64,000 nt of DNA from Candidatus Peregrinibacteria bacterium (lineage in GTDB: Bacteria > Patescibacteriota > Gracilibacteria > UBA1369 > LOWO2-01-FULL-3), in contig JACQRJ010000036.1 of NCBI GenBank assembly GCA_016206505.1, forward strand, positions 365 to 64,364, written 5' to 3'. A model generated the notes under the pieces. The model ran no database searches, was not told where the DNA came from, and was given only the letters and a program-made list of their open reading frames with translations. The stretch's first letter is position 1, and every line of letters begins with the position of its first letter. Shown here in pieces: positions 51,380 to 60,559 of this stretch. The position numbers were made by a program, and so were the translations under genes.

Positions 51380-51438
51380 ACCCCTTCCATAATCAAAAAT
51401 TATCGCGTATATTTGCGCCGGTTTAATTTTGAAAAACA

Positions 51439-51846
51439 ATGTTTGACGAAAAACCGGTTCAGATCAAAAACAAGCCATGGGGACGCGAGATCTGGTTTGC
51501 ACATACCGATAAATACGCCGGCAAAATCCTAGAAATCAAAAAAGGTCACCGCTATAGTCTTCAATATCACGAGAGAAAACATGAAACTCAATATGTTCAA
51601 AGCGGACAGGTAAAGCTGATTTACGGTACGGAAAAAGACAATTTGCAGGAAAAAATCCTAAATCCCGGTGACAAAGTGGAAGTCAGTCCTTATACTATCC
51701 ACCGTTTGGAAGCTATGAAAGACAGCCAGGTTTTTGAAGTATCCACTCCCGAGCTCGATGATGTCGTAAAACTTGACGACGACTACGGTCGCAGCGGCAA
51801 AGGAAACGACGAACAGCTCGATCATCAATTACATAAACAATCCTAA
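51439..51846 (+). CDS. Cupin-domain protein (type II mannose-6-phosphate isomerase C-terminal-like)
   Basis: KPWGREIWF...KKGHRYSLQYHERKHETQYV..G......PGDKVEVSPYTIHRLEA...DDVVKLDDDYGR. Confidence 0.75.
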   Translation: MFDEKPVQIKNKPWGREIWFAHTDKYAGKILEIKKGHRYSLQYHERKHETQYVQSGQVKLIYGTEKDNLQEKILNPGDKVEVSPYTIHRLEAMKDSQVFEVSTPELDDVVKLDDDYGRSGKGNDEQLDHQLHKQS

Positions 51847-51857
51847 CACCCTAAAAC

Positions 51858-54800
51858 ATGAAAAGATTTCTTTCCTGGAAAATTTTAGCAGTTTTGATCG
51901 TAACAGTTCTTCTCGGTTTTTTTGATCTCTCCCCCGCTTTACAGGAAAAACTACTCCCATTCCTGCCAAAAGAAGGAGATATCACGGCGGATGGAGAAGT
52001 GGTCACGAAGACGAAAATTCTGCTTGGACTGGACTTGCAGGGAGGCTCACAACTTGATTACAAAATTGACCTTAGAAAAGTTCCTCCGGAAGATCAAAAA
52101 GAAATCATCAATGGTGTAAAAGAAGTTATCGAGCGTCGCGTCAACGGCCTGGGTGTCAGCGAACCAAATATATATACTTCGGAATTGGCCGGAGAAACGC
52201 ATCTGATAGTGGAATTGGCGCAAAATACTAATTTAACGCAAGAAGATGCTGAAAATTATTTTGGCAAAGATAAAAAACTCGAAGAATTGACAGAAGATGA
52301 ACGCAAAACAGCCAGTCTAGAAAAAGCTAAAGCAACAGTCGGAAAAACCATTCAACTCGAATTCAAAGAAAAAAAAGATCAATTGGATCCTCAGGAATTG
52401 GATACGGTGAGACAAAACGCCGAAGCGGCATTGCAAAAGATAAAAAGTGGCGCAGATTACAGCATTATCGGCCAGGAAGAAATGCAGGCTTTCCCGGGAA
52501 AAGTAAAATATGACAAACCGGAATATCAATTCCTGGACAACATTCCTTCAAAAATTCAGGAAGTTATAAAAAGCCTTGAAATAGGAGAAATTCGCAAGGA
52601 GCTGATTGAAACAGGCGGCAATTTCACTATCGACACAAACGGACAAGCCGTAGAAGACACGGGACTTTCCATTATAAGACTCATAGATAAAAAGGAAGAA
52701 AAGAAAACCGATCTGCAGGTTTCTGTAAGCCATATTTTAATCAGCTACAAAGGAGCCGATAAAGCCGATGCCGCGGTTACCAGAAGCGATGAAGAAGCAT
52801 ATGCGCTGGCAAAAGAATTGAAAGTAAAACTCCAAGCCGGAGAAGATTTCGGCACCTTGGCCGAGGGCTATTCCGATGATGCCGGCTCAAAAACCGCAAA
52901 AGGCGTTTTGCCCGCCCCCGTAACCGGAAAAGGAGATTATGTTTATGACTTTGAACAGGCGGCGCTTGCACTGAAAAATGCGGGAGATGTAAGCGAAATA
53001 GTCAAAACGCAATTTGGTTATCACATCATTAAAGCAGATAAAGTCGATAAAGATGTCAAGGACATTAAGTATAAGTATGAAGCAATTACTTTTTCGACAG
53101 TTCCAGATCCCTGGCAAGAAACCGGCCTAACAGGTAAACAATTTATTCATGCCGATGTCCAGGTGGACAATCTTTATCAGCCATACATTCAGATTCAATT
53201 CGACGAAGAAGGCGCCAAGCTTTTTGAACAGATTACGGAACGCAATGTAAACAAACCTGTCGCTATTTTTGTTGGCGGACAGCTTATTTCTTCACCAAAT
53301 GTTCAGGAAAAAATCCCCGGAGGCATCGCCAGAATCACCGGACAATTCACGCAGGAAGAAGCGCAAGCTCTTGCCAGAGATCTAAATACAGGTGCAATCC
53401 CCGCCCCCATCGTTCTAACCGGCGAATACACCATCGGAGCCACCCTCGGCCAGGAAGCATTAAATCAGAGCTTAAAAGCCGGCCTGCTTGGACTGGTTTT
53501 GGTGATTGTCTTCATGATTCTTTATTACAGATTATCAGGCGCAATCGCCGCTTTGGCACTTTTGATTTACACAATTATTTTCATTTTCTTAATTAAAGCA
53601 CAATTACACCTTGGCCTGGCGATTTTGGTCTCGCTTGGAGGCTTCAGCTTTATGATCAGTAAAACACTGCAAAATCAGGATTCGGGATGGGAAAAATTCA
53701 TTACATTCATCTTGAGTTGTATCGCCTTCTTCTTTCTGGCATTCCTGCTCAAAACAGGAGTTGTCATCAGTCTTGCGGGTATTGCCGGTATCGTTCTCTC
53801 AATCGGTATGGCCGTGGATGCAAACGTCCTGATCTTTGAAAGATTCAAAGAAGAACTGAGAAACGGTAAAACTTTCGCCCAAGCCGTTGATATTGGTTTC
53901 AATCGTGCCTGGACAGCTATCCGGGATTCAAATTTTTCAACACTGATAACATGCGCGATTTTATTCTACTTTGGCAGCTCAATCATACGCGGTTTCGCCT
54001 TCAATCTGGCCACGGGTATCATGGTTTCCATGTTCACGGCGATCACAATTACCAGAATGCTACTGCAGAGTTTTGTCGGCAAAAAAATATCCGAAAACCT
54101 CTATCTCTTCGGCATGCCGAAGAAGGAAAAACAAGAAAGTAAATTCTCTTTCACCAAAAGAGCAAATCTTTTTCTGGGCACATCGGGAGTGGCATTTATC
54201 ATCGCCATGATCGCGATTTTCACTTTTGGCCTAAATCTTGGTATCGACTTCAAGGGTGGCACTTTGATGGAATTTAAATTCACAGATAAAGTAACCAAAG
54301 AACAACTTCAGGAGGAAATAACAAAGGCCACTGGGGAAATTAATGAAGCAACTCCGGAAGTAACTCCGGCAGCAGCTCCTGAGGCTCCAACAGAATCTGC
54401 AGCTATAGCAACACCGCAAATCCAACCGGTCCCGATCGAAGGCCTTAGCGCAGAAGAAAACAGCAAAATAAATCTCAAAGGAATGCAGATTTTGCCTGTA
54501 ACCGAAACAAATTACATCGTCAAAACCAAATATCTCACCGCGGAAAATCATGGCAAACTTGTTGCCAGACTAAAAACAACACTCCCGGCATTCACAGAAC
54601 CACGCTTCACAACAATCGGACCGATCATAGGCGAAACATTGCTGCAGAAAGCCATAGTAGCTGTCATCTTCGCTTTGATTATGATTATCGTTTATATCGG
54701 TTTCGCTTTCCGCAAAATGCCAAAATCCGTCAGTCCATGGCGTTTTGGAGCAACAGCGATTATCGCGCTTGTACATGATGTTGGAATTGTCACGGGAATA

Positions 54801-55169
54801 TTTGCAATACTCGGATATTTCTTAAATGTGGAAATCGACGCGCTTTTTATCACAGCAATGCTCACAGTCTTCGGCTATTCCGTAAATGATACCATCGTCA
54901 TCTTCGATCGTTTGAGAGAAAATCTGCTAAGACATGCGGAAAGTAAAGATTTCGGTGAAATTACCGATCAGTCCCTAAATCAAACCATTGCACGCTCAAT
55001 CAATACTTCATTATCTACAATCATTGCTTTGCTTGCTGTACTGATCTGGGGAGCTTCTTCGATTTTCTATTTCGTGCTGGCGCTTACCCTGGGCACTTTT
55101 ATCGGTACCTATTCATCAATTTTCGTTGCCGGCCCGCTTCTGGTAAAATGGAAAGAGTGGCGCTCATAA
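51858..55169 (+). CDS. secDF: Protein translocase SecD-SecF fusion carrying an inserted parvulin-type PPIase domain in the first periplasmic domain
   Basis: LGLDLQGGSQL (SecD N-terminus). Parvulin segment VSHILISYKGA...EDFGTLAEGYSDDAGSKTAKGVL...FGYHIIKADK (nt ~52720-53045). SecD TM bundle (GMAVDANVLIFERFKEE). SecF start (GIDFKGGT) and SecF TM bundle (GYSVNDTIVIFDRLREN). Confidence 0.9.
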   Translation: MKRFLSWKILAVLIVTVLLGFFDLSPALQEKLLPFLPKEGDITADGEVVTKTKILLGLDLQGGSQLDYKIDLRKVPPEDQKEIINGVKEVIERRVNGLGVSEPNIYTSELAGETHLIVELAQNTNLTQEDAENYFGKDKKLEELTEDERKTASLEKAKATVGKTIQLEFKEKKDQLDPQELDTVRQNAEAALQKIKSGADYSIIGQEEMQAFPGKVKYDKPEYQFLDNIPSKIQEVIKSLEIGEIRKELIETGGNFTIDTNGQAVEDTGLSIIRLIDKKEEKKTDLQVSVSHILISYKGADKADAAVTRSDEEAYALAKELKVKLQAGEDFGTLAEGYSDDAGSKTAKGVLPAPVTGKGDYVYDFEQAALALKNAGDVSEIVKTQFGYHIIKADKVDKDVKDIKYKYEAITFSTVPDPWQETGLTGKQFIHADVQVDNLYQPYIQIQFDEEGAKLFEQITERNVNKPVAIFVGGQLISSPNVQEKIPGGIARITGQFTQEEAQALARDLNTGAIPAPIVLTGEYTIGATLGQEALNQSLKAGLLGLVLVIVFMILYYRLSGAIAALALLIYTIIFIFLIKAQLHLGLAILVSLGGFSFMISKTLQNQDSGWEKFITFILSCIAFFFLAFLLKTGVVISLAGIAGIVLSIGMAVDANVLIFERFKEELRNGKTFAQAVDIGFNRAWTAIRDSNFSTLITCAILFYFGSSIIRGFAFNLATGIMVSMFTAITITRMLLQSFVGKKISENLYLFGMPKKEKQESKFSFTKRANLFLGTSGVAFIIAMIAIFTFGLNLGIDFKGGTLMEFKFTDKVTKEQLQEEITKATGEINEATPEVTPAAAPEAPTESAAIATPQIQPVPIEGLSAEENSKINLKGMQILPVTETNYIVKTKYLTAENHGKLVARLKTTLPAFTEPRFTTIGPIIGETLLQKAIVAVIFALIMIIVYIGFAFRKMPKSVSPWRFGATAIIALVHDVGIVTGIFAILGYFLNVEIDALFITAMLTVFGYSVNDTIVIFDRLRENLLRHAESKDFGEITDQSLNQTIARSINTSLSTIIALLAVLIWGASSIFYFVLALTLGTFIGTYSSIFVAGPLLVKWKEWRS

Positions 55170-55182
55170 AAAGCACAGAAAT

Positions 55183-55259
55183 GCGCCCTTAGCTCAATTG
55201 GATAGAGCGCCTGGCTTCGGACCAGGAGGCTGAAGGTTCGATTCCTTCAGGGCGCACCA
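55183..55259 (+). tRNA. tRNA-Arg, anticodon TCG, with genomically encoded CCA
   Basis: A hand-folded cloverleaf. Acceptor GCGCCCT/AGGGCGC. D arm GCTC-AATTGGATA-GAGC. Anticodon arm CCTGG-CTTCGGA-CCAGG. Variable loop AGGCT. T arm GAAGG-TTCGATT-CCTTC. Discriminator A, then CCA. Confidence 0.9.
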
Positions 55260-55293
55260 TTAAGTAGCGAGATTTGCGATCCGTAGCCGAAAC

Positions 55294-55379
55294 GTCACGC
55301 GAATTTAGCGTGACTGAAGGCGCAGGAGAACTTTCGAGAAATCTGCAAACGAACGTGAAGCAAATTTCGACGAAAGTTC
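55294..55379. terminator. Two strong stem-loops between tRNA-Arg and the convergent 195-aa gene
   Basis: GTCACGC (55294-55300) pairs with GCGTGAC (55308-55314). GAACTTTCG (55328-55336) pairs with CGAAAGTTC (55371-55379), and the stem extends inward by 5+3 more pairs. Confidence 0.4.
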
Positions 55380-55398
55380 AGCAAATCCCTATTGAATA

Positions 55399-55986
55399 TT
55401 ATATCAACCCCTGCTCATTGATCCTCCTCTGCACTCTTCCCGCATTTATTATTTGTGCAAAAGCCCTCAGTCCGTGATCATAGGTGTTCTCTGAAAATAT
55501 ATCATCGCAAACCGCATGCAAAAGAAAGTCCAAAGTTTCCCTCCAATGCTCCTCATATTTTGGCTGGGCTATACCGATCACCTTCCTCACAAAATCACTG
55601 CCGCGTTCACGCAAAGCCTTCACATATTTTTGACGATGCAAAGTCACATGGAGCCTCAAGCCTTCACTGCAAATTGCCAAATAATCAAAAGTAAGGCTCC
55701 AAATCCTGTCATATTTTTCATCATCAACATCAAAAATCTCCCTCAAATGAGCCATTCCATGCTTTATATACAAATCTACGAAAAAATCACAATTGGCAGT
55801 CACGCACTTCTGCAATAAATTATGTTCAAAAACCAGATAATCAAAGATCACAAGCCATTCTTCATCGGATAAATTCATACTTTCCTGCAAATGCGTAGGC
55901 CCATCCTGAATATACTTTTCGACCAGGCCGCTCTCGCGCCCAAAAGCATATCTTTCAATCGTCAAATTTTGATCTGTTGGATTCAT
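55399..55986 (-). CDS. Hypothetical all-helical protein (195 aa), divergent from the efflux operon
   Basis: A clean ORF with its own promoter. No family or HTH recognised. Confidence 0.6.
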   Translation of the reverse strand: MNPTDQNLTIERYAFGRESGLVEKYIQDGPTHLQESMNLSDEEWLVIFDYLVFEHNLLQKCVTANCDFFVDLYIKHGMAHLREIFDVDDEKYDRIWSLTFDYLAICSEGLRLHVTLHRQKYVKALRERGSDFVRKVIGIAQPKYEEHWRETLDFLLHAVCDDIFSENTYDHGLRAFAQIINAGRVQRRINEQGLI

Positions 55987-56010: not shown

Positions 56011-56076
56011 ATTATATATAAAAACCGCGATTTGTCAATATATAATGTTGACAAGAGCCATCTTTCTCACAATAAT
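56011..56076. promoter_or_regulatory. Divergent promoter pair whose two TTGACA -35 boxes form an inverted repeat (TTGTCAA-N9-TTGACAA)
   Basis: Plus strand: TTGACA 56048-56053, 17 nt, AATAAT 56071-56076. Minus strand: TTGACA (complement of 56033-56038), 16 nt, TATAAT (complement of 56011-56016). Confidence 0.4.
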
Positions 56077-56105
56077 TGCACCTTATCCAATCGAAGGGAA
56101 AAATC

Positions 56106-57461
56106 ATGAAAAAAACCTTTATTTTAAGCCTAATAATTAGCATCACCTTTTCCGGATGCAGTCTTTGGAGTACAAAAGATTCGGACACAGACCTTATTGA
56201 CCGAGGCATTCCAGACAAGCTCAAAGAGATAGAAATTTACGATTTAGGCACAGAAAAACCCGAAATTACGATTACTTCCAGTGGATTTATCGCCTCCGAC
56301 ACCGAAGTGAACATTGCACCCCAAATCGTCGGCAAAATAAGCGAAATTCACGCACAGGTTGGCGATTTTGTGCAAAAAGATGACTTACTGGTCACACTTG
56401 GCGACTCCTTAAGTACAGATTTGCTCCAATTACAATACGAAACAGCTTCACAAAGCCTGGATTTAAGTGATTATGCGACTTATCTGACGGATTTTTCCAG
56501 CGAACAAAGTCTCGATCAGGCAGACCTCAGTGTTCAAATTGCTGAAGAAAACTATTACAACGCCATTCAGGCACGAAACAACGCGGAAGAACAGTATGAA
56601 ACGCAACTGGAAAGCCTCGAGCTGCAACTGGAAAATGCCGAGGATCTAGCTGAAAAAGCCATAAATCAGACAGATTATCCAGTAGATCAAGCCGATGTCG
56701 CCATTGAAATTTTGGAAGCCAGTCATCAAGCCCAGATCGACCAACTGAATTACGCAATCGAAATCGCTTATCTTCAATGTCTCGCCGCTTTAAACCAATT
56801 GGAAATGCAAAGCGCCACCACGGAACTTCAAAAACTCCAGGCACAAACGCAACTTTTGCAAGCTGACTCAAGCCAAAACGCAGCTGAAAAAAATTATCAA
56901 CAAAGATATATCCGTGCCCCTCAAAACGGCACTTTGACCGCCATCACAGTCAAAAAAGGCAATCTGGTAGCGCCAGGACAGATAATAATCCAAATACAGG
57001 ACACCGATTCTATTAACGCCAAAACCGCAATTTCAAAGGAAGAAAGCAGATTTATTGATCTATCAACGAAAGTATATGTAGACACTGACGAAGGCGAACA
57101 AGAAGGAAAAATCACATTTTTAAGCCCAAGCCTGAATCCGCTAAGCAAAAAAATCGATCTAGAAATCGCGCTGCAAGAAGAAAGTGAAACTTTGCCCGGA
57201 TCATTTACAAAAATTTATTTCAAACCAAAAGCAGATGATTTAATCATCATTCCGCTCAATACAATTTTCATCGAAAAAGGCGATAAATTTGTAAAAATAG
57301 TCAATGGAGAAAACAAAATCGAACACAGAAAAATCCGCATCAAAGAAGTCATCGGCGATTTCGCCATAGTCAAATCAGGGCTAAACGGCAACGAAAAAGT
57401 GGTTTCAAACGTAGAAATTTTCACTCAGGAAGGAGAAGAAGTTAGCATAAAAAATTCATGA
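56106..57461 (+). CDS. Efflux RND periplasmic adaptor (HlyD/MFP family) lipoprotein
   Basis: Lipobox MKKTFILSLIISITFSGC. Lipoyl-like half-motifs (VGKISEIHAQVGDFVQKDDLLVTL; IRAPQNGTLTAITVKKGNLVAPGQIIIQI) flank a long coiled coil. The track start (56076) was trimmed to ATG 56106. Confidence 0.8.
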   Translation: MKKTFILSLIISITFSGCSLWSTKDSDTDLIDRGIPDKLKEIEIYDLGTEKPEITITSSGFIASDTEVNIAPQIVGKISEIHAQVGDFVQKDDLLVTLGDSLSTDLLQLQYETASQSLDLSDYATYLTDFSSEQSLDQADLSVQIAEENYYNAIQARNNAEEQYETQLESLELQLENAEDLAEKAINQTDYPVDQADVAIEILEASHQAQIDQLNYAIEIAYLQCLAALNQLEMQSATTELQKLQAQTQLLQADSSQNAAEKNYQQRYIRAPQNGTLTAITVKKGNLVAPGQIIIQIQDTDSINAKTAISKEESRFIDLSTKVYVDTDEGEQEGKITFLSPSLNPLSKKIDLEIALQEESETLPGSFTKIYFKPKADDLIIIPLNTIFIEKGDKFVKIVNGENKIEHRKIRIKEVIGDFAIVKSGLNGNEKVVSNVEIFTQEGEEVSIKNS

Positions 57462-60400
57462 AAAATTCTTTTTTCATCAATAAAAGAGCCATTTCCTGGC
57501 TGATGATCCTCACCATCATTTTTTTGGGATATTTCGGCTTAAAAGAAATTCCTCTTGAACTGCAGCCGGAGATCACAATCCCAATCGCTTCAGTCACCAC
57601 TTTCCTGCCCGGCGCAAATCCCGAAGATATCGAAACACTCATCACAAAACCCCTGGAAAAAGAAGTCGCCAATATTTCCGATATCAAAGAGCTTTCATCC
57701 ATCTCGGGTCTTGGACTTTCACTACTTATTGTCGAATTTGAAGCGGAAAGCGACCTTGACGAAGCAGTATCGGAACTGAAAGACAAAATCGATATCGCAA
57801 AAACGGATTTGCCCGAAGATGCCACAGAGCCGCTTGTAACAAAAGTACAATCAAATGCTCTTCCAATAATCAGCTTTTCAATTACAGGCGACTTTGTGCT
57901 CAAAGATCTCACAAAAATCGCCGAAGACATGGAAGAGGAATTGAAAAAAATTCCCGAAATTTCAAATATCACCATCATCGGCAATTTAAAAAAAGAAATC
58001 CTGATCGCAGTTGATCGTGAAAAAGCCGCAAATTACGGCTTAAGCTTAAGCCAAATAGCCCAGATCATCAAAGCCTCGTATTTAAACTTTCCCATCGGCA
58101 TCATCACTACCGATCGCATAAATTATTCCATCACCTTCGATAACCGCTTCAAGGAACTCAAAGAAATCGAAAATTTACCGCTTTTCACCGCAAACGACAC
58201 GCAGAATACGCTCATATTACTCAAAGACTTTGCAACGGTAAAAGAAAATCTACGCGACACAGGTAAAATTTCAAAACTATCCATCAAAGGCGAAACTTCA
58301 AAAGAAACAGTCACATTAAAAATTTTCAAAAAAGATAACGCGAACATTATCGATCTGGTCGAAAAATCAAAAGCCAAAATCGAAGAGTTGAAAGGCACAA
58401 AAATCCCTTCAAATGTTGAAATCGCCATCACCAACGACAATGCACAGTTTATCCGCGACGACCTTGGACTACTAACTTCAAGCGGCATCCAGACAACAAT
58501 TTTAATCACTATTGCTCTATTTCTGGCTCTCGGACTGACAGAAGGCATTTTAGCCGGCTTAAGCATCCCTCTCACGCTTTTAAGCACAATCGCAATTTTA
58601 CAGGCCTTTGGTATGACCATAAACGGCCTTACGCTTTTTGCCATGGTCATTGCGGTCGGAATAATGGTAGATACCGCAATCGTAGTGATGGAAGGCATCC
58701 ATGAAAACATCAAAAAAGGTTTAAGCGCCAAAGAAGCGGCAATCGCTTCTATCGCAACTTACAAATGGCCGCTCATTGCCGGAACAGTGACCACTGTCTT
58801 TGCTTTTTTGCCAATGCTACTTGTCAGCGGCATTGTGGGACAATTTTTAAAAGCCTTACCAATTACAATTTCAGCGGCATTATTAAGTTCATTATTCATC
58901 TCTCTTACAATCATTCCCGCCATCACAGTCAAATTTCTTGAAAACAAAAATTCAGGGAACAAAAAAAGCCTGCTTGCAGGTGTCTTCAATTTTCTCGGCG
59001 TATTTTTTGAGAAAATTATCGGAAAAATAATTCATTACCGGCCTGGACGGGTTTTTGTCGTATCGGTTACACTTATATTTTTTGCCTTAAGCATGCTGCT
59101 GCCAATAACCGGCATCCTAAAAGCCGAACTTTTTCCAAAAACAAACATGCAGTTTTTTATTATCAATATCGAAACTTTAAACGGCTTAAATCTTGAAGAA
59201 ACCGAGAAAATAGTGGAACAAGTTGAAAATGAACTTTATCAGATCAAAGAAATCGACAATTTTTTGACAATCATCGGCGACCAACAATCGCTTGCAGCTA
59301 CAGATATTGTCCAATTCACTTCCGCCGGAAATTCCAATCAGGCCAACATCACAGTCAACCTTGTACCGAAAGAAGATCGCACAAAAACCAGTTATGAAAT
59401 CTCCTCTGAACTCAGAGAAAAATTGAAACCGATCAGCAATGCGAAAATCTTTGTCAGAGAAATCTCCGAAGGGCCGCCATCCGAATCACCTGTCACGGTG
59501 CGCATCACCGGAGAAGACCTGAAAATTCTTGAAAAAATCGCCGATGACATCGTTTCAGTAACCGAAAAAATTCCCAAAACGGAAAACGTCAGAAGCAGCT
59601 TAAAGCCAGGCTTAAATCAATTCAAATTCACTCTCGATCGTGAAAAACTGGCATTTCATGGCTTATCTCCTGTCAATGTCGCTGTTGAAATCCGAAATCT
59701 GATCCAGGGAACCAAAAGCACGGAAATCTTTCTCAGATCCGAGGATCTGGAGATAAACGTAAAATTCACCGAAACCGCAGCAAAAAATCCGCCGGAATTT
59801 AATATTGATGACTTGCAAAATACTGGAATTTTTTCTCCAAAAGGCTACAAAATAGCGCTCAAAGATATAGGTTCATATAGCTTTGAAGAAGCGGTTTCTG
59901 AAATCGAAAGAGAAGACCAGAAACGCATTATCAAAGTTCAAAGTGATATTACAAAAAATGCCAATGCGGTTGAAATCACAGCAGCAATCGAGAAAAAACT
60001 CAAAGACCATGATCTGCCTGAAGGATATGAAATCAGCTACGGCGGCGACCTCGAAGAAATCAATAAATCCTTTCAGGAGCTCTTCCGTTCCATGGGACTC
60101 GCGATCGTCCTGATCGGCTTCTGTCTTGTTTTAATGTTCAATTCGCTAAAACAACCCTTCATCATCCTTTTGACCTTGCCAATGGCTCTGATCGGCGTTT
60201 TGCCCGGACTGTTTCTAGTCAATCTGCAATTATCCTTTCCAGCCTTTCTCGGAATTGTTGCTTTAGCCGGAATCGTCGTAAACGACGCCATCGTCCTCAT
60301 CGACAGTATAAATGAGAATATCAAAAACGGCATAGAGTTCAACAAAGCGATCTGCGAATCCGCAAGCTCCAGACTACAACCAATCATCATGACTTCAATC

Positions 60401-60559
60401 ACAACAATCCTCGGCATTCTACCATTGGTATTCACAAACGAATTTTGGGCCGGCCTCGGATATGCTCTCATTTTCGGCCTGATGGCATCGACATTTCTTA
60501 CACTCTTAGTCGTGCCGGTGCTTTACTACATGTTTGAAAAGAAAAAAGCCACTTCATAG
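57458..60559 (+). CDS. RND-family efflux transporter permease (AcrB-like)
   Basis: 1033 aa with 12-TM/two-loop pseudo-symmetry. Conserved segments VIAVGIMVDTAIVVMEGI and LAGIVVNDAIVLIDSI. The start overlaps the adaptor stop (ATGA). Confidence 0.9.
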   Translation: MKNSFFINKRAISWLMILTIIFLGYFGLKEIPLELQPEITIPIASVTTFLPGANPEDIETLITKPLEKEVANISDIKELSSISGLGLSLLIVEFEAESDLDEAVSELKDKIDIAKTDLPEDATEPLVTKVQSNALPIISFSITGDFVLKDLTKIAEDMEEELKKIPEISNITIIGNLKKEILIAVDREKAANYGLSLSQIAQIIKASYLNFPIGIITTDRINYSITFDNRFKELKEIENLPLFTANDTQNTLILLKDFATVKENLRDTGKISKLSIKGETSKETVTLKIFKKDNANIIDLVEKSKAKIEELKGTKIPSNVEIAITNDNAQFIRDDLGLLTSSGIQTTILITIALFLALGLTEGILAGLSIPLTLLSTIAILQAFGMTINGLTLFAMVIAVGIMVDTAIVVMEGIHENIKKGLSAKEAAIASIATYKWPLIAGTVTTVFAFLPMLLVSGIVGQFLKALPITISAALLSSLFISLTIIPAITVKFLENKNSGNKKSLLAGVFNFLGVFFEKIIGKIIHYRPGRVFVVSVTLIFFALSMLLPITGILKAELFPKTNMQFFIINIETLNGLNLEETEKIVEQVENELYQIKEIDNFLTIIGDQQSLAATDIVQFTSAGNSNQANITVNLVPKEDRTKTSYEISSELREKLKPISNAKIFVREISEGPPSESPVTVRITGEDLKILEKIADDIVSVTEKIPKTENVRSSLKPGLNQFKFTLDREKLAFHGLSPVNVAVEIRNLIQGTKSTEIFLRSEDLEINVKFTETAAKNPPEFNIDDLQNTGIFSPKGYKIALKDIGSYSFEEAVSEIEREDQKRIIKVQSDITKNANAVEITAAIEKKLKDHDLPEGYEISYGGDLEEINKSFQELFRSMGLAIVLIGFCLVLMFNSLKQPFIILLTLPMALIGVLPGLFLVNLQLSFPAFLGIVALAGIVVNDAIVLIDSINENIKNGIEFNKAICESASSRLQPIIMTSITTILGILPLVFTNEFWAGLGYALIFGLMASTFLTLLVVPVLYYMFEKKKATS

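What the first reader, a model, noticed from the sequence alone, without database searches (positions are those of the whole stretch)
52360..53100. Parvulin-type PPIase domain inserted into the periplasmic head of a SecD-SecF fusion
An inserted region lies between the SecD N-terminal motif (LGLDLQGG ... VELA) and the conserved P1-base sequence (QPYIQIQFDEEGAKLFEQIT...VAIFVGGQLISSPNVQ).

Its core reads VSHILISYKGADKA...EEAYALAKELKVKLQAGEDFGTLAEGYSDDAGSKTAKGVL...[36 protein letters not shown]. This matches the PpiC/parvulin rotamase signature (SHIL..., DF..LA..YS.D..S...GG.L, FGYHII).

In model bacteria, periplasmic or extracytoplasmic foldases of this family (PpiD, SurA, PrsA) act next to the Sec translocon as separate proteins. 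A covalent fusion inside SecD would place a foldase directly at the exit of the channel. I am not aware of a description of this architecture.
Basis: partly seen in the sequence, partly recalled or inferred. Interest (0 to 1): 0.6.

Follow-up and report, generated by a model that had tools for sequence, protein, structure and literature searches.

The report
SecDF translocon subunit with built-in foldase
A groundwater Peregrinibacteria genome encodes the protein-export motor SecDF with two parvulin-type folding-helper domains (one degenerate, one apparently active) built into its mobile outer "head", a design conserved across this candidate phylum but, as far as I could find, never described.

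Summary
ORF 51858-55169 (+) encodes a 1103-aa SecD-SecF fusion. Its periplasmic P1 domain carries a PpiC/parvulin domain (aa 271-394, Pfam E 6.5e-25) between the SecD N-terminal P1 motif and an intact P1 head.

It is a tandem: a degenerate parvulin-like fold without catalytic histidines (aa ~173-280), then a PrsA-like parvulin with the His/Asp/Thr/His tetrad conserved. It replaces a short variable loop just after the conserved LEF hinge strand, so it decorates the head rather than replacing it.

It is not a chimera. Independent contigs from four groundwater runs cross both borders. At least 120 protein clusters and about 60 GTDB species representatives, essentially all Peregrinibacteria/Peribacteria, share the colinear architecture.

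Relatives include unfused SecD with the same insert, and TM-less lipoprotein or SLH-anchored copies of the whole P1+parvulin ectodomain.

Most likely function (inferred): an in-cis PrsA/SurA/PpiD-like holdase/foldase riding on the PMF-driven P1 head at the SecY exit. Reported in-trans parvulin-SecDF contacts in E. coli and Mycoplasma fit this reading.

No paper describing the fusion was found. Verdict: new variant of a known kind; interest about 0.6.

The parts
51858..55169 (+). secDF gene: 1103-aa SecD-SecF fusion carrying the insert
   Evidence: ORF list; Pfam and NCBIfam; the AlphaFold model's best PDB matches are SecDF 5xan, 5yhf and 3aqp (3aqp TM-score 0.74 normalised to the target)
51876..51926 (+). 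TM1 (aa 7-23), which places the following P1 domain outside the cytoplasmic membrane
   Evidence: Helix 7-23 in the model; hydrophobic peak
52023..52220 (+). P1 base, N-terminal part (aa 56-121: LGLDLQGG...VELA)
   Evidence: Pfam SecD_1st aa 86-125; aligns to T. thermophilus SecDF residues 31 onward; 83% column conservation
52221..52319 (+). Small helical insertion (aa 122-154) between VELA and the hinge motif, relative to T. thermophilus SecDF
   Evidence: Helices 128-135 and 146-161; comparison with the 3aqp sequence printed
52320..52373 (+). Canonical SecD hinge motif EKAKATVGKTIQLEFKEK (aa 155-172). It is the most conserved stretch of the ectodomain and marks the true upstream border of the insert
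   Evidence: 15 of the 17 residues aa 155-171 are invariant and column conservation is 94%; it corresponds to 'dralkligqravlefrivkeg' of 3aqp
52374..52697 (+). Insert domain 1 (aa ~173-280): degenerate parvulin-like fold lacking the catalytic histidines
   Evidence: No Pfam hit on its own. Isolated model pLDDT 82. The top 17 Foldseek PDB hits are all parvulin domains or parvulin-containing chaperones (SurA, its isolated P1 and P2 domains, 3gpk, PEB4, CBF2), with prob 0.63-1.0 (0.92 or more for the first 16) and E 6e-3 to 0.5. A weak hhalign match to helix 1 of the second domain. At the strand-4 position aligned with FGYHII the residues are non-catalytic (L270/I272/K274/L275), and no His appears in the surveyed strand-1 and strand-4 columns
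52698..53057 (+). Insert domain 2 (aa 281-400): PpiC/parvulin PPIase domain of PrsA type, with H292, D341, T384 and H389
   Evidence: Pfam Rotamase_3 and Rotamase; the best solved-structure sequence matches are PrsA foldases 6vj6, 5htf, 2jzv and 1zk6; tetrad conserved in 63-69 of 69 homologues
53058..53120 (+). Linker strand (aa 401-421) returning from the parvulin domain to the head
   Evidence: Long strand 387-413 in the model; conserved YKYE..YST.PDPW
53121..53417 (+). P1 head (aa 422-520), intact
   Evidence: Pfam SecDF_P1_head, profile positions 19-114 of 114; aligns to 3aqp residues 160-318; 82% column conservation
53448..54137 (+). SecD transmembrane bundle (aa 531-760) with invariant D654 in GMAVDAN
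   Evidence: Pfam MMPL/SecD_SecF_C; invariant columns
53601..53753 (+). Extra 51-aa hydrophobic two-helix insertion (aa 582-632) between TM3 and TM4, specific to this fused subfamily
   Evidence: Gap in pairwise alignment to the unfused SecD relatives P0295 and P0356, plus hydropathy; helices 585-605 and 610-633; conserved in 69 homologues
54138..55166 (+). SecF half (aa 761-1103) with invariant D1011, R1018 and R1046
   Evidence: TIGR00966 at 303 bits against a cutoff of 160; Pfam Sec_GG and SecD_SecF_C; invariant columns

Best explanation
This is a genuine, functional SecDF, the PMF-driven accessory motor of the Sec translocon. Its extracytoplasmic P1 domain has acquired a tandem parvulin module at the base-to-head hinge. 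The first unit is a catalytically dead parvulin-like fold, which probably binds peptide in the way SurA P1 or the PpiD parvulin domain does. The second is a PrsA-type parvulin with an intact catalytic tetrad.

The module is threaded between the first hinge strand (…TIQLEFKE) and the first strand of the head (…TGLTGKQF…), so it must travel with the head as the head swings. The proposed mechanism is as follows. A polypeptide emerging from SecY is captured by the P1 head. It is then held, and its prolyl bonds isomerised, by the attached parvulins. This couples pulling, prevention of backsliding and first-step folding in a single polypeptide. The module would perform in cis the work that PrsA, PpiD/YfgM, SurA or the Mycoplasma Mdp dome perform in trans.

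Shown here: the architecture, its topology, its conservation, retention of the catalytic residues, and retention of the proton-path residues. Inferred: PPIase and holdase activity, proximity to the SecY exit, and coupling to head movement.
For: Domain identity: Pfam and NCBIfam; nearest solved parvulins by sequence are PrsA foldases; the whole-model Foldseek search returns SecDF 3aqp/5xan.

Insert position: the alignment to 3aqp resumes at query 424 = Tt residue 160, and the LEF hinge motif is retained. About 250 aa therefore replace a loop of about 42 aa. The P1_head profile is matched from position 19 onward.

Domain 1 is parvulin-like by fold.

Purifying selection: H292 is kept in 63/69 sequences, D341 in 69/69, T384 in 66/69 (S in the other 3) and H389 in 64/69. 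The insert's column conservation (0.62-0.67) is comparable to the SecF P4 region (0.54).

The motor is intact: D654, D1011 and R1046 are invariant.

The feature is real and old. At least 120 clusters at 55-100% identity share the same Pfam set. 62 of the 80 GTDB loci returned are colinear SecD(F)+parvulin. The insert is also found in unfused SecD. Independent contigs span both borders.

Biological plausibility from papers. The SurA parvulin domains are predicted, and supported by low-resolution EM, to dock on the SecDF P1 head (PMC9987972). PrsA-like Mdp444 forms a dome on the SecYEG-SecDF translocon, and its PPIC domain contacts substrate density (10.1101/2025.04.25.650208). Mpn444 cross-links to SecD and shows PPIase activity (10.1101/2024.09.05.611430).
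Against: There is no experimental or expression data; no RNA runs hold the stretch. The full-length model has only moderate confidence (pLDDT 74, pTM 0.57), and I could not inspect coordinates. The position of the parvulin active site relative to the head's substrate groove or the SecY exit is therefore unknown.

Five of 69 homologues have replaced both catalytic histidines (H292R/N, H389N, with F386N) yet keep the domain. This suggests that catalysis is dispensable in at least one sublineage and that binding may be the main role.

The fold assignment for domain 1 rests on weak Foldseek E-values (6e-3 or worse) and on no sequence-profile hit.

Some of the same genomes also carry a free lipoprotein copy of the ectodomain, so the fusion is not simply a replacement for every stand-alone foldase.
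Confidence: 0.68

Rival explanations
1. Holdase-only or substrate-capture extension. Both parvulin units act mainly as extra peptide-binding surface that enlarges the P1 head's capture range. Prolyl isomerase catalysis would be incidental or lost, as in the PpiD parvulin domain and SurA P1.
For: Domain 1 lacks the catalytic histidines throughout the family. A sublineage of 5/69 has H292R/N + H389N in domain 2 yet retains the domain. The top structural neighbours of domain 1 include SurA P1 bound to peptide (2pv1, 2pv3).
Against: In 63-69 of 69 sequences the complete tetrad, plus S339, G349 and G387, is conserved. That is more than a pure binding role would need. The closest sequence relatives with solved structures are PrsA foldase domains.
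Confidence: 0.2
2. Structural spacer or docking module. The tandem domains lengthen the P1 arm or dock SecDF to another envelope component (cell wall, S-layer, pilus assembly proteins) rather than handling Sec substrates.
For: This position in P1 is a known size-variable site. E. coli SecD has about 328 residues before the equivalent head strand against 160 in T. thermophilus, and NCBIfam holds SecDF models of 993 and 1403 positions. A paralogue is anchored by SLH cell-wall-binding domains (P0266).
Against: A spacer does not need a conserved catalytic tetrad. The same ectodomain works as a free lipoprotein with no TM motor, which fits a chaperone better than a spacer.
Confidence: 0.07
3. Artefact: an assembly chimera or mis-joined ORF that fuses a parvulin gene into secD.
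For: None found. One Logan unitig in run X1 ends at 52233, but it ends in sequencing-adapter sequence and overlaps the next contig by 30 bases.
Against: An X2 contig of 6040 bp spans 51400-53663 with no differences. X3 and X4 contigs cover both borders. Depth is flat and there are no joints. The same colinear gene occurs in at least 120 protein clusters and about 60 species genomes from many studies. GC content is continuous across the borders.
Confidence: 0.01

Closest known systems
Canonical SecDF (Thermus thermophilus 3AQP/5YHF; Deinococcus radiodurans 5XAN/5XAP)
   Same: It is a single-chain SecD-SecF fusion with TM1, a P1 domain made of base and head, TM2-6, a P4 domain and TM7-12. The LGLDLQGG and LEF hinge motifs are present, as are the head sequence and the charged TM residues D654, D1011 and R1046. 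Foldseek E is 7.6e-38 to 6.6e-33, with TM-score to target up to 0.74.
   Different: About 250 aa (two parvulin-type domains) replace a loop of about 42 aa between the first hinge strand and the head. There is also an extra 33-aa helical insert before the hinge motif, an extra 51-aa hydrophobic hairpin between TM3 and TM4, and a disordered P/A/T-rich stretch in P4.
PrsA, the lipoprotein foldase of Firmicutes (B. subtilis 4WO7/1ZK6, Listeria 5HTF, B. anthracis 6VJ6, S. aureus 2JZV)
   Same: PrsA parvulin domains are the closest solved-structure relatives of insert domain 2 by sequence (E 5e-14). The location is extracytoplasmic and membrane-tethered, and the presumed clients are Sec substrates.
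   Different: There is no PrsA NC chaperone domain, no lipobox and no evidence for a dimer. NCBIfam PrsA models score 39-62 bits against cut-offs of 303-361. Here the membrane tether is SecD itself.
SurA (E. coli 1M5Y) and its reported docking on the SecDF P1 head
   Same: Both have tandem parvulin units with the first inactive and the second active. SurA and its P1 domain are the top structural neighbours of insert domain 1. Troman et al. 2023 (PMC9987972) report AlphaFold models in which SurA P1 and P2 contact the SecDF P1 head. That is the same partnership which is covalent here.
   Different: No SurA N- or C-terminal chaperone core is detected in Pfam. SurA is soluble and periplasmic, and it serves outer-membrane proteins.
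PpiD/YfgM at SecYEG (E. coli)
   Same: A membrane-anchored parvulin-fold chaperone positioned at the translocon's periplasmic face (PMC9643414, listed).
   Different: PpiD is a separate single-pass protein with a SurA-like domain and an inactive parvulin domain. It contacts SecY/SecG rather than being part of SecD.
Mycoplasma pneumoniae 'dome' translocation-folding complex (Mdp444/436/489 + SecYEG-SecDF)
   Same: It occurs in a genome-reduced bacterium. PrsA-like parvulin proteins are stably assembled on a SecDF-containing translocon, and only one PPIC domain keeps its catalytic residues while the others are degenerate. Substrate density touches the active PPIC domain (10.1101/2025.04.25.650208; 10.1101/2024.09.05.611430).
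   Different: The association there is non-covalent and involves large lipoproteins that form a chamber. Here two small parvulin domains are inserted into the SecD chain itself.

Membership tests
SecD/SecF (SecDF) protein-export membrane protein | Sequence-profile membership for both halves | tested here: met
   TIGR01129 secD scores 347 bits (cutoff 244), TIGR00966 SecF 303 bits (cutoff 160) and TIGR00916 335 bits (cutoff 148.6). Pfam SecD_1st, SecDF_P1_head, Sec_GG and SecD_SecF_C are all above their gathering scores. The full-length SecDF equivalog models score below their cut-offs, as expected given the insertions.
SecD/SecF (SecDF) protein-export membrane protein | RND-like 12-TM fold with P1 (base + head) and P4 periplasmic domains | tested here: met
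   The AlphaFold model (pLDDT 74) has SecDF 5xan, 5xap, 5yhf and 3aqp as its best PDB matches, followed by RND pumps.
SecD/SecF (SecDF) protein-export membrane protein | Conserved charged TM residues of the proton path (Asp in TM4; Asp and Arg in the SecF TMs) | tested here: met
   D654 (GMAVDAN), D1011 (SVNDT) and R1046 are invariant in 69 homologues. Their equivalence to Tt D340/D637/R671 rests on motif position and on my memory of Tsukazaki 2011. It was not checked by structural superposition.
SecD/SecF (SecDF) protein-export membrane protein | PMF-dependent stimulation of translocation | not testable with these tools
   Needs biochemistry or genetics.
Parvulin (PpiC-type) peptidyl-prolyl isomerase domain: insert domain 2 | Profile match above the curated threshold | tested here: met
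   PF13616 at 88.4 bits (cutoff 22.5); PF00639 at 76.6 bits (cutoff 21.7).
Parvulin (PpiC-type) peptidyl-prolyl isomerase domain: insert domain 2 | Catalytic His / Asp(Cys) / Thr / His network (Pin1 H59, C113, T152, H157) | tested here: met
   H292, D341, T384 and H389 are present in the window protein and in 63, 69, 66 and 64 of 69 homologues. The match to Pin1 numbering uses the HMMER alignments together with motif positions recalled from memory.
Parvulin (PpiC-type) peptidyl-prolyl isomerase domain: insert domain 2 | Measured cis/trans isomerase activity | not testable with these tools
   Needs an enzyme assay.
Parvulin fold: insert domain 1 (aa ~173-280) | Four-stranded sheet with flanking helices in parvulin topology | tested here: inconclusive
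   The secondary-structure order fits and the top 17 Foldseek hits are all parvulins or parvulin-containing chaperones (prob 0.63-1.0), but E is only 6e-3 to 0.5. There is no Pfam hit, and hhalign aligns only one helix. Strand 1 may be shared with the SecD hinge strand.
Parvulin fold: insert domain 1 (aa ~173-280) | Catalytic histidines | tested here: not met
   The aligned strand-1 and strand-4 positions are Q/L/E/F and L/I/K/L across the family, so any parvulin domain here is a non-catalytic one.
PrsA foldase lipoprotein | Lipobox plus NC chaperone domain flanking the parvulin domain; full-length profile match | tested here: not met
   NCBIfam PrsA and PRK models score 39-62 bits against cut-offs of 303-361, and only over the parvulin domain. 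The N-terminus is SecD TM1, not a lipoprotein signal peptide.
SurA | SurA N-terminal chaperone domain (PF09312/PF13624) plus two parvulin domains | tested here: not met
   No SurA_N hit in Pfam. Only the inactive-then-active tandem parvulin arrangement is analogous.

The most novel reading that the evidence does not exclude
The fusion is a natural 'Rosetta stone'. It would show that the partnership between parvulin chaperones and the SecDF P1 head, so far only modelled or cross-linked in E. coli and Mycoplasma, is an ancient and selectable functional unit.

In Peregrinibacteria the whole P1+tandem-parvulin ectodomain has also been released from the motor. It occurs as a stand-alone lipoprotein of about 465 aa and as an SLH-anchored protein. 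That implies the SecD P1 head is itself a portable, PMF-independent substrate-binding chaperone domain, which would found a new family of extracytoplasmic chaperones.
Probability: 0.35. Interest if true: 0.72.

Novelty: new variant of a known kind. Interest (0 to 1): 0.6.

Why it matters
How proteins leaving SecYEG are handed to folding factors remains an open question. The evidence that parvulin chaperones work at SecDF is recent and indirect: low-resolution EM and AlphaFold for SurA, and cross-links and in-cell tomography for the Mycoplasma Mdp proteins.

A phylum-wide covalent fusion of parvulins into the moving P1 head is independent evolutionary evidence for that coupling. It also offers a compact, single-chain system in which translocation-coupled folding could be studied structurally.

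It shows how a genome-reduced candidate-phylum lineage consolidates envelope proteostasis into the translocon. Finally, it corrects an annotation blind spot, because these genes are deposited simply as 'protein translocase subunit SecF'.

Tried and rejected
1. Second parvulin or PrsA/SurA/PpiD gene in the window. A tblastn search with both insert domains found only the secDF gene itself. This covers 64 kb only and says nothing about the rest of the genome.

2. Sequence-level proof that insert domain 1 is a parvulin. BLASTP against domain 2 found nothing. Global hhalign found nothing, and local hhalign aligned only a 29-column helix at 35% probability. Pfam gave no hit. The case for domain 1 rests on the fold search alone.

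3. Assembly chimera. Rejected.

4. RNA evidence of expression. No RNA run holds the stretch.

5. Literature. Six full-text searches (SecDF+parvulin; SecD+PPIase+fusion+CPR; Peregrinibacteria+SecD; SecD+rotamase+domain architecture; Patescibacteria+SecDF+peptidyl-prolyl; SecD+PpiC) returned no description of the fusion. The library lacks most subscription journals, so absence is not proof.

6. Taxon names for the unfused SecD+parvulin representatives. The cluster look-up gave no organism names. Their placement next to Peregrinibacteria loci L058, L070 and L072 comes from tblastn.

7. Promoter and terminator scan around the gene. Promoter-like sites were at background level; terminator-like sites were about two sd above it (13 against 7.0 ± 2.9) and were not followed up.

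8. Position of the parvulin domains relative to the head groove. The tool returns no model coordinates, so this could not be analysed.
Full report
OBSERVATION. The window carries one uninterrupted ORF at 51858..55169 on the + strand, 1103 aa. Pfam places these domains along it:
- SecD_1st, aa 86-125
- Rotamase_3, aa 271-394 (E 6.5e-25), and Rotamase PF00639, aa 292-394 (E 3e-21)
- SecDF_P1_head, aa 422-516 (E 2.8e-26)
- an MMPL/SecD TM region, aa 627-743
- Sec_GG, aa 785-811
- SecD_SecF_C, aa 905-1100

NCBIfam's secD (TIGR01129) and SecF (TIGR00966) models are both passed above their curated cut-offs. The PrsA and PPIase full-length models are hit only weakly, and only over the parvulin domain. 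GC content is continuous across the borders.

NOT AN ARTEFACT. Logan contigs from four groundwater-metagenome runs in two studies carry the sequence. When laid on 51400-55400, one 6040-bp contig (X2) crosses 51400-53663 without a single difference. Contigs from X1, X3 and X4 also cover both insert borders. Depth is flat and no joints are reported.

A search of 5.8 billion proteins returned at least 120 clusters at 55-100% identity and about 100% coverage, all with the same Pfam set (Rotamase plus all SecD/SecF domains). Where named, they are Peregrinibacteria, Peribacteria, 'Gracilibacteria' or Patescibacteria MAGs, plus a few labelled Nitrospirota or Nitrospirae, labels I did not check.

ANATOMY. 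The alignment to T. thermophilus SecDF (3AQP) covers query 52-168 and resumes at query 424 = Tt residue 160. The motif EKAKATVGKTIQLEFKE (aa 155-171) has 15 of its 17 residues invariant and is the most conserved stretch of the ectodomain. It is the counterpart of Tt 'RALKLIGQRAVLEFRIV', the strand that leads from the P1 base into the head.

The true insert is therefore aa ~173-421. It replaces a variable loop of about 42 residues in Tt. The P1_head profile is matched from position 19 onward. The module decorates an intact head (82% column conservation) and does not replace it. This site is size-variable in other SecD proteins too: E. coli SecD reaches the same head strand only at residue 328.

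THE INSERT IS A TANDEM. Domain 2 (aa 281-400) is a canonical parvulin. Its nearest relatives among solved structures are PrsA foldases (6vj6, 5htf, 6xd8, 2jzv, 1zk6; E down to 5e-14), ahead of Pin1 and SurA.

Domain 1 (aa ~173-280) has no Pfam hit and only a one-helix hhalign match to domain 2. Its predicted secondary-structure order matches the parvulin topology. A separate AlphaFold model of aa 143-283 (pLDDT 82) finds only parvulin domains or parvulin-containing chaperones among its top 17 PDB neighbours. These include SurA, isolated SurA P1 with peptide, SurA P2, 3gpk, PEB4 and CBF2, with probability 0.63-1.0 (0.92 or more for the first 16) but weak E-values of 6e-3 to 0.5. Domain 1 lacks the catalytic histidines throughout the family. 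I read it as a degenerate, probably peptide-binding, parvulin-like domain, with moderate confidence. The arrangement 'inactive then active' parallels SurA P1-P2.

CONSERVATION. In 69 aligned homologues, the domain 2 residues are conserved as follows:
- H292: 63/69
- S339: 69/69
- D341: 69/69
- G349: 69/69
- T384: 66/69 (S in the other three)
- G387: 69/69
- H389: 64/69

Five sequences (P0059, P0084, P0086, P0101, P0114) share H292R/N + F386N + H389N yet keep the domain. This hints that binding, not catalysis, can suffice.

The motor part looks functional. D654 (GMAVDAN), D1011 and R1046 are invariant. The full-length model (pLDDT 74, pTM 0.57) is matched best by SecDF crystal structures (5xan, 5xap, 5yhf, 3aqp; TM-score to target up to 0.74).

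DISTRIBUTION AND RELATIVES. I scanned one genome per GTDB species with an alignment of the insert. It confirmed 419 parvulin relatives and kept the best 80. I then mapped six segments of the protein onto those loci.
- 59 loci are colinear SecD(F) genes with the insert (L003-L058, L062, L063, L067).
- Three more (L070, L072, L074) are divergent SecD/SecDF with a parvulin.
- Nine (L059-L061, L064-L066, L068, L069, L071) encode a TM-less protein comprising parvulin plus a P1-head-like domain.
- The remaining nine are unrelated stand-alone parvulins.

Organism titles are overwhelmingly Candidatus Peregrinibacteria or Peribacteria, which NCBI places in the phylum Peregrinibacteriota.

An exhaustive HMMER search of 1.84 billion representatives with the insert profile added unfused SecD proteins of 776-812 aa with Rotamase between SecD_1st and P1_head (P0295, P0329, P0335, P0356, P0376, P0304, P0292). 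It also found P0266, which has two SLH domains + Rotamase + P1_head and no TM region. By tblastn the unfused forms sit next to Peregrinibacteria loci L058, L070 and L072.

The TM-less proteins (for example P0140 and P0147, about 465 aa) mostly begin with lipoprotein-type signal peptides (…SGC, …TGC). They align with the SecDF ectodomain from the hinge motif through both parvulin units and keep a weak but detectable P1-head domain. Their N-terminal region also resembles the P1 base by eye. P0140 is a stand-alone gene, convergent with a Trypsin_2 (HtrA-like) protease gene. Two MAGs (AUK087, SW.3.65) carry both the fused SecDF and the lipoprotein.

CONTEXT. The neighbouring genes are housekeeping and unrelated:
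- a His_Phos_1 phosphatase/mutase on the opposite strand
- an NTP_transferase and a cupin/mannose-6-P isomerase C-terminal protein immediately upstream on the same strand
- tRNA-Arg(TCG) 14 nt downstream
- a hypothetical gene on the opposite strand
- an HlyD-type adaptor and an AcrB-type RND pump
- PriA and a class I tRNA synthetase

Further upstream lies a type IV prepilin peptidase. No other parvulin is encoded in the 64 kb.

MECHANISM (inferred). TM1 (aa 7-23) places P1 outside the membrane. In canonical SecDF the head binds the emerging preprotein and swings on the two hinge strands, driven by proton flow. This is established knowledge for T. thermophilus and D. radiodurans SecDF; the PDB titles 'I form' and 'Super-membrane-facing form' appear.

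Here the tandem parvulins are threaded into the chain right after hinge strand 1, so they must move with the head. The most economical reading is a built-in holdase/foldase. Domain 1 and the head would hold the unfolded chain, and domain 2 would isomerise prolyl bonds. This would limit backsliding and start folding at the exit.

Three papers make the reading plausible. SurA binds the holotranslocon, and AlphaFold docks its two parvulin domains on the SecDF P1 head (PMC9987972). In M. pneumoniae, PrsA-like Mdp proteins form a dome on SecYEG-SecDF, and substrate density touches the one catalytically intact PPIC domain (10.1101/2025.04.25.650208). Mpn444 cross-links to SecD and has PPIase activity (10.1101/2024.09.05.611430). 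The Peregrinibacteria protein is the covalent version of that partnership.

WHAT IS NOT SHOWN. The following remain untested: enzymatic or chaperone activity, expression (no RNA runs), and the spatial relation of the module to SecY (no coordinates available). I also could not establish whether these genomes lack stand-alone PrsA/SurA/PpiD, since only the window could be checked. The envelope type of the organism is likewise unknown.

NOVELTY. The architecture is present in public databases with precomputed Pfam hits, under the name 'protein translocase subunit SecF'. I found no paper describing a parvulin inserted in SecD/SecDF. It is a new variant of known kinds (SecDF, parvulin foldases), not a new kind of system.

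The free P1+parvulin lipoprotein and SLH paralogues are, to my knowledge, also undescribed. They may be the more original lead.

VERDICT. Confidence in the architecture is about 0.97. Confidence in the in-cis foldase/holdase function is about 0.68. Interest is 0.6.

Noticed in passing
L060 (OY969931.1, 1.37-Mb chromosome), L059, L061, L064-L066, L068, L069, L071; proteins P0140, P0142-P0144, P0147-P0149, P0152, P0157, P0170: This is a family of stand-alone proteins of about 465 aa, mostly with lipoprotein signal peptides (…SGC/…TGC). Each reproduces the SecD P1 ectodomain with both parvulin units and a diverged P1 head, but has no TM motor. P0140 lies convergent with a Trypsin_2 (HtrA-like) protease gene. 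Two MAGs carry both this protein and the fused SecDF.
   Followed up: partly
P0266 (709 aa; representative library, no locus): This protein has two SLH (S-layer homology) domains followed by the parvulin + SecDF_P1_head module, with no TM region. It is a cell-wall-anchored version of the same ectodomain.
   Followed up: partly
P0295, P0329, P0335, P0356, P0376, P0304, P0292; loci L058, L070, L072: These are unfused SecD proteins (776-812 aa) with a parvulin between SecD_1st and P1_head and a longer, different upstream insert. The parvulin insertion is therefore not tied to the SecD-SecF fusion. P0292 also has a large additional insertion with hydrophobic and low-complexity sequence inside the head region.
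   Followed up: partly
window 53601-53753 (aa 582-632): There is a 51-aa insertion of two hydrophobic helices (a predicted extra TM hairpin with loop KTLQNQDSGWEK) between TM3 and TM4 of the SecD half. It is conserved in the fused subfamily and absent from the unfused SecD relatives; absence from T. thermophilus SecDF is from memory, because the alignment stops at this point. Its function is unknown.
   Followed up: partly
window 54351-54461 (aa 832-868): A Pro/Ala/Thr/Glu-rich, length-variable stretch lies inside the SecF P4 domain. It is predicted disordered (pLDDT below 50) and is poorly conserved across homologues.
   Followed up: no
proteins P0059, P0084, P0086, P0101, P0114 (homologues, not the window): A sublineage of the fused SecDF has co-ordinated substitutions at both catalytic histidines and a neighbouring residue (H292R/N, F386N, H389N) yet keeps the domain. 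The Arg at the first-His position mirrors the His-to-Arg change reported for Mycoplasma Mdp444.
   Followed up: partly
proteins P0126, P0131 and many 3-stretch hits: Secreted proteins of about 370 aa consist of three tandem parvulin domains. All three have the same SHIL…Y/WKGA…TR(S/T)KEEA extended loop after strand 1 that is seen in the SecDF insert. They are the closest stand-alone relatives of domain 2.
   Followed up: no
window 56076-60559: An HlyD-type membrane-fusion protein and an AcrB-type RND transporter lie together, with no adjacent outer-membrane factor; the next gene is PriA. This bears on the open question of the envelope architecture of this lineage.
   Followed up: no
window 55152-55285: Contig depth jumps 10- to 30-fold over the tRNA-Arg(TCG) gene in all runs, and many contigs end there. 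This is expected for a sequence shared among many community members, and it is a natural break point for assemblies.
   Followed up: no
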